A stretch of DNA of 64,000 nucleotides from the human T2T-CHM13v2.0 reference genome, Homo sapiens: the NCBI RefSeq assembly GCF_009914755.1, contig NC_060935.1. The stretch is one strand, 5' to 3'. The position numbers and the translations under genes were made by a program. Under the pieces are notes generated by a model. It did no database searches. It was not told where the DNA came from and saw only the letters and a program-made list of their open reading frames with translations. Numbering within the stretch: the stretch's first letter is position 1; every line of letters begins with the position of its first letter. Shown here one piece after another: positions 6,446 to 11,354 of this stretch.

Positions 6446-6812
6446 AAATTATCTTCTAATAGATACAAACATTCTATTTCTTGCAATTTTGCGTCCAGAT
6501 TAGAACTATGATTAGTGGGTTTTTATGTAGGGGCAAATACTTTTTCAAGTTTCGGACCCCTTTATGCCCCCTTTTTTTGCTGAGCATTTTATTTCCTTTC
6601 CTGAAACCAAAAGGACAACAGTATTGAGCTAGTGAAGATTTGGAAACCTAATACTTTGGTAATACTAAAACATTGATGTTCAAAATATCCAAATGTGAAA
6701 CACATGACTAAAAAAATACTTTGTATTGTTCTACCTAGTCATGATCAATGTAAACATGTGGGTATCAGTGATAACCAAAAAGATATACTTGCAATGAGTG
6801 AGAAATACTTCA

Positions 6813-6889
6813 TTTATTTAGACTTATGATCATTACATTTTTGTTTTACATTTTAAGGTAGAAGAGAGGTTTAAAAGTGCAATTTTATT
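6813..6889 (-). terminator. PTH: PTH polyadenylation signals (AATAAA at 6889-6884 and 6818-6813)
   Basis: Two AATAAA hexamers on the minus strand at the end of the 3'UTR. Confidence 0.85.
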
Positions 6890-6909
6890 CTTTTATAAAT
6901 TATGCAATA

Positions 6910-6935
6910 ACATACTTTAAAAAGAATAAACAATA
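6910..6935 (-). promoter_or_regulatory. PTH: PTH 3'UTR 26-nt AU-rich stability element (AUF1/KSRP-regulated)
   Basis: Minus strand reads TATTGTTTATTCTTTTTAAAGTATGT, matching the recalled conserved element. Confidence 0.75.
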
Positions 6936-7145
6936 GAAAAGATAATTAAAATAACTCAAATGAATAAAAGTGGAATCAGAATAATCAATTAAAATTGCAG
7001 TTATCATGGCTAGTGATGGATTACATGTAGTTTGTTATATCAGAAATATTGGCACTTGGAAATCTTAATAGAGCTTTGAATTAGCAGCATGTATTGTTGC
7101 CCTACACTGTCTAGAGCAGAACTCTGACAATATCTGTTTTCATTT

Positions 7146-7442
<297 letters not shown>

Positions 7443-7509
7443 TTAGCTCCCCACTTCGAAATGATAAAGTCAACATTAAAAATCCAATTCCAAGGCAAAA
7501 CAGTACTTA

Positions 7510-7629
<120 letters not shown>

Positions 7630-7823
7630 TTAAAATATTTTTAATATTCCAAACTATAGTACACAGAATGCAATACTAACTAATTGGGTTGGTTTTCATG
7701 AGAAGCTTTTGGAATCAACCTCTTTATTTTATGGATACATTAGTATACATTATATATACACATAATTTAACTTATAAATTAGTTTTATGCTCCTAACTAT
7801 CTTTTGGAGATTTCTTGTGCAAG

Positions 7824-7861
7824 TTTTATTTATTTATTTATTTATTTTTATTTATTTTTTT
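7824..7861 (-). repeat. (AAAT)n microsatellite / decayed poly(A) in PTH intron 1
   Basis: (TTTA)n run on the plus strand. Confidence 0.9.
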
Positions 7862-9380
7862 AGAATGCAATTTTTTATTGTTTTCTAAATCTATTTGTAC
7901 ACTTAATATGCTAGTATTAATTTCACAAACAGTATAAAGAATGTACTCCAATGATATTAAGCGGCAACTACTCACCTGAAAAAGAAAACATTGTCTCTGA
8001 AATAATTCCTAATTATACAATTTTGCAAACTAATAAGCACTATAAATATTAAAATGTTAAGACTTCAATGTATAATGTCAATAACATCCTGCCTTTTTAA
8101 AATTGCTTAAAACATTTGTTAAAGATCATGCAAAATAAACACTGTATTAAAATGCTAGATTACACTCAAACATCAAGGCAATGAAACACAAAAGAGCAAC
8201 TATTTAGCACAATGACTGGCCAAGTAAATAACTTAATCAGCATATTAATAAAAATCCACTGAGTGATAAACATCAAAAATGTAACACTGAATCTAGATAA
8301 TCACGCATCTGCGATCTCACCATCTACCGTCCTAACTGTGACTTGGGGTAAACTGCCAGAATTCATTCTGCATAAATGAGCTATGTTAAAATGTTAGCAA
8401 CATTTCATTGCATGATGACAGAGTACATTTCTAGTCCACACAGTACTTCAACGTGATCATTCTCTTAACTCAGCTAATAACTAATGGAAAGTACAGTTTT
8501 ACAGTCATACCACTTATGTATATACATATATTTTACCCTTGCTTTGTTACATGTTTTTAAATTTTTTTTAAAAAAGTATTTCCTTTCTTATGATCCTCCC
8601 CCAGAATTAACATGCTGACTTAGGAAAAGACGAAGTAGATAAAGTCTATCCTAGTATAGAGAGCAATGGTTTACTTTTACCTAATTAAATATTTCCTTGT
8701 CATTTATCAATTGTCACTGACCTTTTTTATGTAATTATTTCCTCATTCACTCATCTATAAATATTTATTAGTGCCTGTTGTTACCCATGTCTCCTTGATT
8801 TTCCAGAAAAATAATTCATGTTTTTTTTTTCTTCTCATTGCTAAGCTCACTTAGAAAAATTAGGCACCATTTAAAAGACTTGGAGAACAGACCAGCGTGG
8901 CTTCTTGGGCACAGCTGGATGGTGCTGGAAGCCAGGCCTGGGATTTGGAGAGAAGAGTCTCCAACAGATAAACCCACGGAGGTCACCAGCCCTCCCTGCA
9001 TCTACTCTCCTAACAGCTCAGGATGGCCCTGTTACACTACTGCCAGCCCTGGTGACTCGCTTTCTTAGCAATTTTTAAAGCCCTCTTCATTATGTACTTC
9101 CTACTTAAAATTCAGAACCTCTGTGATAAGCAATGCCTCTGTCATACAGAATGCTGGATCTCAGTTTACTGAGCCTCTCCCTGTAGTGTCACAGGCTGTG
9201 CACTCACCTAGATGAGCCCCTAAGAGCAGGGTTTGCTTCTGCTTCATCTAATGCCACATCTTCCCTCAAATGTGTGGTCACCAAATGTTCTGCAAAAAGG
9301 GTCTCTAGCTTTTTACTTTTCTTTTTGGCAAATTAAGCCCTTTAAAATACTTCTGACCTATCTTTATACTCAGATCTCAC
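7824..9380 (-). pseudogene. Probable retrocopied mRNA 3'UTR fragment in PTH intron 1 (parent uncertain, tentatively NUS1)
   Basis: Minus strand: long sequence not matching a known repeat, then AATAAA (7879-7874), 12 nt, and an A-rich tail (7861-7824). Far boundary uncertain (~9380-9650). Confidence 0.6.
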
Positions 9381-10647
9381 CTCGTCTCAAGTTTTATGGG
9401 GTAATGCGCCAGTGAAAGGTACAGTGGTATTAGTGAGTTCTGAAGCTTCTAATTACATAGACAATAGAGGCTGGCTGGTGAGCCATGCTTCTCATGCTCC
9501 CTTCTGTCACACTGCAGAAATCTTAAGCTACAAGAGGAATGAAAGAGCCTATTTTTGAGAAATCCCCCCGCACTGCATTTTATGTTGATTATACCTAAAT
9601 GTTTATAACTTGCTTGAAAATGCCTAATTTTCTTCATAGTGTAAATTGTTAACACTATTTACGTAGCAAATCCTTTTCTTAAGTAACCTTCATTTCAGGC
9701 ATTGTAATAACCATAAATACCAAACTAATAGGTGCTAATCTAGAGATTTTCACTAAATTAATTCACATTTCTCCTAGCATTAAAAATAATGTGTCAAAGC
9801 ATTTAAAAATCATCTGATTAATTACTTGTGATATGGATTTCGAGCTTTATCTCTGAATGGAATGCTTGTTTGTAGCTTATTTCTTCAACTTATTTTATTA
9901 ACAATTATCTTTTAATATAACTTTTGTCTCTTTCCTCGTTTCACATCAGTATAGGATATTCTTGCCTTAATCTGCATTTCAGTACTTGCAAAGGCTGTTA
10001 TTATAGAAGTGCTTTTCCTTAATGCTCAGTGTACTACCTTTTAACATACACATAGAGTAGTTATGTACTCCTATTTTACAGGGAAACTGCATCATTTAGA
10101 AATAGCATAGGAAATACTGTTTTCAGAATACAGCTGTCATTTATGTAAAGGAAATAAATATTTACTAGTCAAACTGGGCTTATCCAACTTTAGTATACAG
10201 ATTGGGCTCTTTATGAGCCATAAAATAAATAATCTAGATAAGAATACTCTGCAGGAAAAACAGAATATTAACTCCACTTAATAAATTTATAAAGATTATT
10301 TAAATCAGAACTATTCATTCACCATCAACCTGTTTTATTTCAAAATTTTGACACCGATACTATTATATTAAAGCATAGCATGCCAAATTTTAATGATTTT
10401 TTGTTGTAATTTCAGATGAGGTTTTAAAAGGCAAGGTATCTCAGAAGACTTTAATCAAAAAGGATTTTGTGATTTGAGTAGCATTAATTTATTTTGTATG
10501 TGGCATTTTATATTAAACATAACTCAAACTTCTTAGCATTTTACCTTGAAGAAACAACATGGTATTTGTAGAAATGGTACACATTAAATAATAGCTTGAT
10601 TATCAAAATCTCATGAGATTCAGAAGTGAATTTTTAAGTTTACTTAC

Positions 10648-10733
10648 CATACAATGTCTTAGAACAAGATCTTCGTTCAGGTATGTTAGTAGCTGATGCT
10701 GAGTAAACTAAAGACAACTGATGAATTGGACTG
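10648..10733 (-). other. PTH: PTH non-coding exon 1 (5'UTR)
   Basis: Ends ...GACATTGTATG|GTAAGT; lies ~20-30 nt downstream of the TATA box; 5' end approximate. Confidence 0.9.
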
Positions 10734-10753
10734 CAGACCCCTTAAATGGTGAC

Positions 10754-10907
10754 TTTTATATATAGGTCTTCTGCTTACCAAGAGAGGCTCTTTTATTGTT
10801 ACAGATGATGTCACTCCCAATTCTCTGGATCTCAACTATAGGTTCAAAGCAGCACATACACACACCCATTGGGCGGTGCACACTCTTCTTAAGTTTCAGA
10901 TAATTGG
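10754..10907 (-). promoter_or_regulatory. PTH: PTH proximal promoter: TATA (10754-10764), CRE-like TGACATCA (10806-10813), nVDRE half-site AGGTTCA (10840-10846), CCAAT/GC box (10868-10876), GATA + second CCAAT (10898-10907)
   Basis: Motifs read directly from the sequence; positions fit the known vitamin-D-repression and Sp1/NF-Y elements of the human PTH promoter. Confidence 0.85.
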
Positions 10908-11354
10908 ATACTAAAAGGAAAACAGCATTTGGCTTGACAAGGGGCTTATGCAAAGACTTTTAACAAATACAGAATTATACCATCGAGAAAAATTCTATGT
11001 GGATTAATGAATCTGAATTTATACTGTAAAAAGACTGATTTCAAAGGTTTATGATAAAGTCATTATCTTACTTGAAAATAAAATCCAAAAATAAGTGTAT
11101 TTGTTATAACCGTACTGTTGGTACAGTTTTTATGGTAATAAATCATAAATGTTAGGCTTACTTTACAAGCCATTTTCAACCAATCCATGTCACTTCTGGT
11201 CATCTTTCAAAAAACAGATATAGCCCTTTTCTTAAAGGAAGTGTTAAGAATAATTTGAGAAAATGCTCTTAGTACATAATTACTTTAAAAGCTTCAAAAG
11301 TGAAATTATTTTAAAATTTATTTAACTTATATTTTATTTGTGCATCTTAATCTA

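What the first reader, a model, noticed from the sequence alone, without database searches (positions are those of the whole stretch)
7815..9397. Foreign mRNA 3'UTR retrocopy in PTH intron 1, in sense orientation; the (AAAT)n marker is its decayed tail
Seen on the PTH strand: ~1.5 kb or more of UTR-like sequence, AATAAA (7879-7874), 12 nt, then an A-rich tail decayed to (AAAT)n, ~220 nt before the exon 2 acceptor. A weak candidate TSD is cttgtgcaagttttat (~7814-7829) versus ctcgtctcaagttttat (9381-9397). The sequence resembles my recollection of the NUS1 3'UTR (unverified). As I recall, cow and rat intron 1 are much shorter than the 3046 nt here, which would fit an insertion. Inference: the insert brings a real poly(A) signal, plus further AATAAA hexamers per AAAT unit, into PTH pre-mRNA. 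Intronic cleavage could attenuate PTH in a repeat-length-dependent way.
Basis: partly seen in the sequence, partly recalled or inferred. Interest (0 to 1): 0.7.

Follow-up and report, generated by a model that had tools for sequence, protein, structure and literature searches.

The report
KIDINS220 3'UTR retrocopy in PTH intron

Summary
The structural observation holds, with corrections. On the PTH strand, window 9518-7862 aligns at 94.35% identity over 1665 columns with one other place in this genome, chr2:8752675-8754325. That place is the 3'UTR of KIDINS220, not NUS1. The open frame just upstream ends 140 nt before the homology starts and is 100% identical to the C-terminus of human KIDINS220. 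The copy covers the last 1651 of about 1791 UTR bases. It stops 12-13 nt after the parent's AATAAA and is followed by a 37-nt A-rich tail that the parent lacks, now (AAAT)n. It lies in sense to PTH. Insert plus tail is 1694 of the intron's 3046 nt.

I found no significant duplication at the true borders.

The proposed repeat-length-dependent intronic polyadenylation is untested and looks weak. The U/GU-rich downstream element was not copied, and the intron outside the insert already holds 8 canonical hexamers. A full human PTH gene with both introns is reported to express well in HEK293 (PMC2681451).

This is an ordinary 5'-truncated retrocopy, roughly 20-40 million years old by inference. Interest is low to moderate.

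The parts
7862..9518 (-). Body of the retrocopy: 1657 nt homologous to the last 1650-1651 nt of the KIDINS220 3'UTR (chr2:8752675-8754325, minus strand)
   Evidence: the genome search own. blastn gives 94.35% over 1665 columns, window 9518..7861. Alignment with 74 substitutions in 1643 aligned sites and 7 indel events.
7825..7861 (-). Remnant of the retrocopied poly(A) tail, 37 nt, now A7T-A3T-A5T-(A3T)4-A4, that is the (AAAT)n microsatellite. It holds 7 overlapping AATAAA hexamers.
   Evidence: TRF 7825-7862, period 4, 10 copies. The parent has no A run at this point; it continues ATTCTGACTCATG. Hexamer list.
7874..7879 (-). AATAAA poly(A) signal inherited from KIDINS220 mRNA, 12 nt before the tail
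   Evidence: Identical hexamer in the parent at L002 1518-1513. The window +10..+55 downstream in the copy has T fraction 0.22 and 0 GT, against 0.47 T in the parent.
7970..7993 (-). Pyrimidine tract plus CAG directly joined to a perfect 5' splice-site 9-mer, CAG|GTGAGT (7978-7970). It is inherited from the parent UTR and lies 96 nt upstream of the AATAAA.
   Evidence: Motif scan. Identical in the parent.
9202..9210 (-). Second 5' splice-site-like 9-mer, TAGGTGAGT (8 of 9), inside the retrocopy
   Evidence: only two 9-mers in the scanned intron reach 8 of 9, and both lie inside the insert.
9519..10647 (-). 5' part of PTH intron 1 outside the insert, 1129 nt. Presumed ancestral intron; single-copy in this genome.
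   Evidence: the genome search own returned only the window itself.
7602..7824 (-). 3' part of PTH intron 1 outside the insert, 223 nt, ending at the exon 2 acceptor
   Evidence: hub gene table for the exon 2 border.

Best explanation
Window 9518-7825 on the PTH strand is a 5'-truncated processed retrocopy of the KIDINS220 mRNA. It holds only 3'UTR: UTR bases about 141 to 1791, ending at the proximal KIDINS220 poly(A) site.

Shown here:
- The homology to the KIDINS220 3'UTR.
- The end of that homology at the parent's poly(A) site.
- The A-rich tail that the parent lacks.
- The sense orientation relative to PTH.

Inferred:
- A polyadenylated KIDINS220 transcript was reverse-transcribed and inserted, most likely by LINE-1 machinery, into what was then a PTH intron 1 of about 1.35 kb.
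- This happened in an anthropoid or catarrhine ancestor, roughly 20-40 million years ago.
- The insertion more than doubled the intron.
- The poly(A) tail then picked up A-to-T changes and slipped into an (AAAT)n microsatellite.
- The insert is now spliced out with the intron and has little or no effect on PTH output. Its AATAAA lost the parent's downstream U/GU-rich element, so any intronic cleavage there should be minor.
For: - Only one other full-length match exists in the 3.1-Gb assembly: chr2:8752676-8754207, 94% identity. blastn extends it to 1665 columns at 94.35%.
- The chr2 locus is the KIDINS220 terminal exon. A 413-codon open frame ends ...EERESIL-stop at L002 3291-3293, 140 nt before the homology starts. 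It is 100% identical over 100% of its length to human KIDINS220 isoforms (1109 proteins at E<=0.001, with the top-ranked rows KIDINS220 of mammals or unnamed). KAP_NTPase exons lie upstream on the same strand at chr2:8.80-8.81 Mb.
- Homology stops 12-13 nt after the AATAAA in both sequences. The PTH copy then has 37 A-rich bases and the parent has none.
- The copy starts inside the UTR, and no inverted or further upstream piece of the parent is found in window 6701-11000.
- Where the two differ at a CpG, the parent keeps it 12 times and the copy 4 times. That is the direction expected if the copy is the freely decaying one (binomial p = 0.08).
- Weak poly(A) context: T fraction 0.22 and 0 GT dinucleotides in +10..+55, against 0.47 T in the parent. 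There are 8 AATAAA/ATTAAA hexamers elsewhere in the same intron.
- A CMV-driven human PTH gene with both introns is described as 'efficiently transcribed, processed and translated' in HEK293 (PMC2681451, passages read).
Against: - No target-site duplication. The best local alignment of the 40-nt flanks scores 13, a score reached by 326 of 2000 shuffles, and it is not adjacent to the borders. No ungapped anchored match reaches 70%.
- Intron loss cannot be used as a hallmark, because the copied stretch lies within a single parental exon.
- No empty site in another species could be examined, so the age and the 'ancestral 1.35 kb' rest on divergence (K2P 4.7%) and on recalled primate divergences.
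- Neutrality is assumed, not shown. The last 418 aligned nt differ from the parent at only 7 sites (1.7%) against 67 of 1225 (5.5%) upstream (Fisher p = 6e-4; scan statistic 16 of 5000 shuffles). A freely drifting copy fits this only if the parent's distal UTR is fully constrained and the upstream UTR is neutral in both (P = 0.12).
- No transcript 3'-end data were available, so some use of the intronic site is not excluded.
Confidence: 0.82

Rival explanations
1. First reader's functional model. The same retrocopy acts as an intronic polyadenylation site. Its AATAAA, plus the AATAAA hexamers made by each AAAT unit, cause premature cleavage of PTH pre-mRNA and attenuate the hormone in a repeat-length-dependent way.
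For: - The insert is in sense orientation and carries a poly(A) signal that was used in the parent mRNA.
- There are 7 more AATAAA hexamers in the tail.
- Sense-oriented transposable elements in introns are reported to supply termination sites, and sense ones terminate more efficiently (PMC3517506, abstract read). Transposable elements are associated with 3188 human poly(A) sites (PMC2553571, passages read).
- Expressed retrocopies inside host genes gave new 3' exons in 18 of 726 cases (PMC2584115, table passage).
Against: - The downstream U/GU-rich element of the parent was not copied. The 45 nt downstream have T fraction 0.22 and no GT.
- The intron has 8 other canonical hexamers outside the insert without any annotated intronic 3' end (hub gene table).
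- A perfect U1-type 9-mer lies 96 nt upstream. From recalled work on U1 snRNP, such sites suppress nearby cleavage.
- The intron-containing gene expresses well in HEK293 (PMC2681451).
- The insert has been kept for an estimated 20-40 million years in a dosage-critical hormone gene.
Confidence: 0.06
2. The retrocopy, or its last roughly 420 nt, has been co-opted in the PTH intron. It might act as a splicing element: a juxtaposed 3'/5' splice-site motif that could serve as a recursive splice site or a U1 anchor, or a cryptic 5'UTR exon. It might instead be another regulatory element. Either way that part would be under constraint.
For: - Window 8283-7862 is significantly less diverged from the parent than the rest: 7 of 418 against 67 of 1225.
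- The only two strong 5' splice-site-like 9-mers in the intron lie in the insert. One follows a pyrimidine tract plus CAG.
Against: - The low divergence is still compatible with a neutral copy if the parent's distal UTR is fully conserved (P = 0.12).
- The splice-like motif is simply inherited from the parent.
- The hub's RefSeq table shows no exon or functional element in 7800-9520.
- No Rfam family matches.
- The intron is only 3 kb. By recall, recursive splicing is described mainly for very long introns.
Confidence: 0.07
3. The block arose by DNA-level duplication or transposition of the KIDINS220 terminal exon region, not through an RNA intermediate. The A-rich repeat would then be an unrelated microsatellite.
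For: No target-site duplication was found. No intron-loss evidence is possible, because the copied region is a single exon.
Against: Homology ends exactly 12-13 nt after AATAAA, where mRNA cleavage is expected, and the A-rich tract starts at that very base. The parent's flanking genomic sequence is not copied at all.
Confidence: 0.02

Closest known systems
LINE-1-mediated processed pseudogenes and retrocopies of cellular mRNAs
   Same: It is a copy of a mature mRNA 3' end. It ends at the parent's poly(A) site, carries an A-rich tail, is 5'-truncated and lies on another chromosome. One survey lists over 12,000 putative retrocopies in human (PMC2584115, abstract passage).
   Different: It holds no coding sequence at all, only 92% of the 3'UTR, so protein-based pseudogene pipelines would probably miss it (inference). 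The hub's RefSeq table lists no gene or pseudogene other than PTH across 6795-10918. No target-site duplication is recognisable.
A-rich microsatellites born from retroposon poly(A) tails (recalled: Arcot et al. 1995; Nadir et al. 1996; not read here)
   Same: The (AAAT)n array starts at the exact base where the retrocopied mRNA ends.
   Different: The donor is a cellular mRNA rather than an Alu or L1. That this array is the published PTH intron 1 (AAAT)n marker is recalled (Parkinson et al. 1993), not verified. Searches found no held paper describing it.
Retroelement-derived or retrocopy-derived intronic poly(A) sites and alternative 3' exons
   Same: A sense-oriented element with an AATAAA inside a host intron (PMC3517506 abstract; PMC2553571 passages; PMC2584115 Table 1: 18 of 726 new 3' exons).
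   Different: No evidence of use here. The downstream element is missing, and the hub table shows no alternative 3' exon.
Recursive splice sites (juxtaposed 3' and 5' splice-site motifs; recalled from the literature)
   Same: Pyrimidine tract-CAG|GTGAGT at 7993-7970.
   Different: This is a motif resemblance only. It is inherited from the KIDINS220 UTR, the intron is short (3 kb), and there are no RNA data.

Membership tests
Processed (L1-mediated) retrocopy | Sequence matches the mature mRNA of a gene located elsewhere | tested here: met
   94.35% identity over 1665 columns to chr2:8752675-8754325. That locus is the KIDINS220 terminal exon 3'UTR.
Processed (L1-mediated) retrocopy | 3' end coincides with the parent's cleavage/poly(A) site, 10-30 nt after the signal hexamer | tested here: met
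   Homology ends 12-13 nt after AATAAA in both copies.
Processed (L1-mediated) retrocopy | Poly(A) or A-rich tail that is absent from the parent's genomic sequence | tested here: met
   A 37-nt A-rich tract at 7861-7825. The parent continues ATTCTGACTCATG.
Processed (L1-mediated) retrocopy | Parental introns are absent | tested here: inconclusive
   The copied 1651 nt is collinear with a single parental exon, so no intron could have been removed.
Processed (L1-mediated) retrocopy | Flanking target-site duplication of about 7-20 bp | tested here: not met
Best flank alignment scores 13, reached by 326 of 2000 shuffles, and is not adjacent to the borders. No anchored ungapped match reaches 70%.
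Processed (L1-mediated) retrocopy | Empty orthologous site in species that diverged before the insertion | not testable with these tools
   No non-human mammalian genome is held. Literature on the cow and rat intron size could not be read.
Functional intronic poly(A) site | Canonical signal hexamer | tested here: met
   AATAAA at 7879-7874, plus 7 in the tail.
Functional intronic poly(A) site | U-rich or GU-rich downstream element within about 40 nt of the cleavage site | tested here: not met
   T fraction 0.22, 0 GT and 0 TGT in +10..+55. The parent has 0.47 T.
Functional intronic poly(A) site | Transcript 3' ends with non-templated poly(A) at the site | not testable with these tools
   No RNA data are available. 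The hub's RefSeq table shows no transcript ending in intron 1.
Retroposon-tail-derived microsatellite | Repeat array begins at the 3' end of a retroposed sequence and is A-rich | tested here: met
   TRF array 7825-7862 abuts the last homologous base, 7862/7861.

The most novel reading that the evidence does not exclude
The insert is not inert. Its distal roughly 420 nt (8283-7862) carries a juxtaposed 3'/5' splice-site motif and the AATAAA with the polymorphic (AAAT)n. In this reading that segment is kept under constraint in the PTH intron and modulates PTH pre-mRNA processing in anthropoid primates, through U1 recruitment, recursive or cryptic splicing, or low-level premature cleavage that depends on repeat length. 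That would give primates a layer of PTH dosage control that cow and rodent models lack.
Probability: 0.06. Interest if true: 0.6.

Novelty: new member of a known kind. Interest (0 to 1): 0.25.

Why it matters
- **Gene history:** it explains in one event why more than half of human PTH intron 1 (1694 of 3046 nt) has no counterpart expected in non-primate PTH genes. It also gives the origin of the (AAAT)n repeat in that intron.
- **Practical use:** anyone building human PTH minigenes, interpreting intron 1 variants, or mapping reads and probes to the KIDINS220 3'UTR should know that a 94%-identical copy sits in PTH.
- **Biology:** otherwise this is an ordinary retrocopy. It would matter more only if intronic cleavage or splicing effects were shown.

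Tried and rejected
- **NUS1 as parent:** rejected. The genome search returned only the window itself and two chr2 places.
rejected. The second arm is inherited from the parent.
- **Gapped candidate at the true borders (CTTGTAGCTTAAGATTT against CTTGCACAAGAAAT):** considered and rejected. It needs 3 mismatches and 3 gap bases and does not stand out from shuffles.
- **5' inversion (twin priming) or further parental pieces:** none in window 6701-11000 at E 1e-3.
- **Naming the parent's C-terminal frame:** the protein atlas and PDB gave nothing. The search for homologous proteins did name it.
- **Rfam scan of 7400-10800:** 0 matches.
- **Literature:**
  - No held paper with Kidins220, PDZ-binding motif and ESIL together.
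  - No usable source for cow or rat intron A size.
  - The 1983 human PTH gene paper is not held.
  - No held paper on the PTH (AAAT)n marker.
  - No paper linking KIDINS220 to a PTH-intron retrocopy. One search listed 10 of 390 papers, and none of the 10 mentions KIDINS220; the other 380 were not seen. One search found 2 papers, judged unrelated from the listing's titles and abstract starts (not opened).
- **Third look-alike (L003, chr2:26928045-26928150):** examined. It is only a 110-140-nt stretch of 76-85% identity around the splice-like motif, and it does not extend to the poly(A) site. It was left unexplained.

Full report
**1. What is in the sequence**

Read on the PTH (minus) strand, intron 1 runs from 10647 to 7602 and is 3046 nt long. 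AATAAA sits at 7879-7874. Twelve bases follow (7873-7862), and then comes an A-rich tract at 7861-7825 that reads A7T-A3T-A5T-(A3T)4-A4. Tandem Repeats Finder calls 7825-7862 as a period-4 array with 10 copies, 83% matches and score 55. The tract ends 223 nt before the exon 2 acceptor.

**2. What it is**

A search of the window's own 3.1-Gb assembly with 7862-9400 (minus strand) gave three matches:
- the window itself;
- chr2:8752676-8754207 (minus strand) at 94% identity over the whole query;
- a 104-nt piece at chr2:26928045-26928150.

blastn of window 6701-11000 against the chr2 locus gave a single alignment. It runs from window 9518 to 7861, covers 1665 columns at 94.35% identity, and has no second or inverted piece. 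In the global alignment the similarity begins abruptly at 9518 and ends abruptly at 7862/7861.

The chr2 locus was identified as follows.
- Immediately upstream on the same strand is an open frame of 413 codons that ends ...EERESIL-stop at L002 3291-3293.
- That frame is 100% identical over its full length to the C-terminus of human KIDINS220 isoforms. It is 92-96% identical to KIDINS220 of other mammals (1109 proteins at E<=0.001, with the top-ranked rows KIDINS220 of mammals or unnamed).
- Exon-sized matches to KAP_NTPase (PF07693) lie upstream at chr2:8.80-8.81 Mb on the same strand.

The parent is therefore the KIDINS220 3'UTR and not NUS1.

The UTR runs from L002 3290 to about 1500, or 1791 nt. 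The PTH copy starts 140 nt into it and covers the remaining 1651 nt, which is 92%. In the parent the AATAAA (L002 1518-1513) is followed by AAATTGCATGCT and then ATTCTGACTCATG. There is no A run there.

Four features are the hallmarks of a 5'-truncated retroposed mRNA:
- a copy of an mRNA 3' end;
- an end at the cleavage site;
- an A-rich tail that the parent lacks;
- a location on a different chromosome.

The copy has the same orientation as PTH.

**3. What is missing or wrong**

The letters are there. However, 9381-9397 lies inside the homologous block, and the parent has the same words at that place. It cannot be a duplication of the target.

At the true borders I compared the 40 nt upstream of 9518 with the 40 nt after the tail. 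The best local alignment scores 13, a score reached by 326 of 2000 shuffles, and it is not adjacent to the junctions. No anchored ungapped pairing reached 70%.

Intron loss cannot be scored, because the copied stretch is one exon. An RNA intermediate therefore rests on the precise poly(A)-site end plus the tail. I consider that sufficient; I give DNA duplication about 2%.

**4. Age**

Copy and parent differ at 74 of 1643 aligned sites: 54 transitions and 20 transversions, K2P 0.047. There are also 7 indel events. At non-CpG sites the difference is 58 of 1597 (3.6%), and at CpG sites it is 16 of 46.

I set this against recalled genome-wide divergences: human-orangutan about 3.4%, human-macaque about 6.5%, human-marmoset about 10-11%. 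If both copies drift freely, the figure places the event near 20 million years. If the parent UTR is partly or wholly constrained, it could be up to about 40 million years. This is inference. No other primate or mammal genome could be consulted.

Removing the 1694-nt insert leaves 1352 nt: 1129 nt on the 5' side and 223 nt on the 3' side. The 5' part is single-copy in this genome. I recall cow and rat intron A being about 1.6-1.7 kb, but I could not read a source.

**5. Does it do anything?**

In favour:
- The hexamer is one that the parent mRNA really used.
- The tail adds 7 more AATAAA.
- Sense-oriented elements in introns are a documented source of termination sites (PMC3517506 abstract; PMC2553571 passages).
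- Retrocopies gave new 3' exons in 18 of 726 expressed cases (PMC2584115 table passage).

Against:
- Retroposition copies only what lies upstream of the cleavage site. The parent's U-rich downstream region (T fraction 0.47) is replaced by the A-rich tail (T fraction 0.22, no GT or TGT in +10..+55).
- The intron already holds 8 AATAAA/ATTAAA hexamers outside the insert, and the hub's RefSeq table shows no transcript ending in the intron.
- A perfect CAG|GTGAGT lies 96 nt upstream. From recalled work on U1 snRNP, such sites tend to suppress nearby cleavage. The same motif did not prevent use of the site in the parent.
[quoted passage not shown] That paper did not look for truncated RNA.

I put the functional model at about 6%. 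It can be settled only with 3'-end data from parathyroid RNA.

**6. An unexplained detail**

Divergence from the parent is uneven. There are 7 differences in the last 418 aligned nt (8283-7862) and 67 in the upstream 1225. Fisher's test gives p = 6e-4. No 418-nt window holds fewer than 6 differences, a minimum matched in only 16 of 5000 shuffles. Base composition does not explain it: the AT-rich bins 8900-8491 show 4.9-6.9%.

A freely drifting copy fits only if the parent's distal UTR is fully conserved and the upstream UTR is neutral in both copies (P = 0.12). With a half-constrained upstream parent the fit is poor (P = 0.016). Constraint on the copy, or ectopic conversion, cannot be excluded. 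An outgroup UTR would settle it.

**7. Comparison with what is known, and verdict**

This is a member of a very common class, the 5'-truncated processed retrocopy. It is unusual only in three respects: it holds no coding sequence, it lies in sense orientation in the first intron of a classic hormone gene, and it has given rise to the microsatellite there.

I found no paper that links KIDINS220 to PTH intron 1 (with the limits stated under Tried and rejected). mRNA-based retrocopy catalogues could not be consulted and may already list it.

The structural finding is real and is corrected here. The functional claim is unsupported. Interest is 0.25.

Noticed in passing
window 8283-7862 (minus strand) against L002 about 1920-1500: The last 418 aligned nt of the retrocopy differ from the KIDINS220 parent at only 7 sites (1.7%), against 5.5% upstream. 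This may reflect strong constraint on the parent's distal UTR, constraint on the copy, or ectopic conversion. It is not resolved without an outgroup.
   Followed up: partly
window 7993-7970 and 9210-9202 (minus strand): The only two 9-mers in PTH intron 1 that match the 5' splice-site consensus at 8 of 9 or better lie inside the retrocopy. CAGGTGAGT (7978-7970) directly follows a pyrimidine tract plus CAG, which looks like a recursive splice-site motif. A 3' splice-site-like tract at 9545-9528 sits just upstream of the insert, so a 320-nt pseudo-exon (9527-9208) is formally possible. No annotation supports either.
   Followed up: no
L003 (G000:C2:26928045-26928150 and about 30 nt on either side): A third, short look-alike of 110-140 nt and 76-85% identity covers only the part of the KIDINS220 UTR around the TTTTCAGGT(A/G)AGTAG motif. 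It does not extend to the poly(A) site. Its nature is unknown: it could be an old repeat fragment or a conserved element.
   Followed up: partly
L002 1518-1440 (chr2, KIDINS220 3' end): The parent has tandem poly(A) signals. AATAAA at L002 1518 is the one used by the retrocopied mRNA. ATTAAAAATAAA at 1455/1449 is followed by a strong GT-rich downstream element with 7-9 GT in 45 nt. This suggests alternative 3' ends about 65 nt apart.
   Followed up: no
window 9519-10647: The 1129-nt 5' part of PTH intron 1 has no other match in the assembly.
   Followed up: yes
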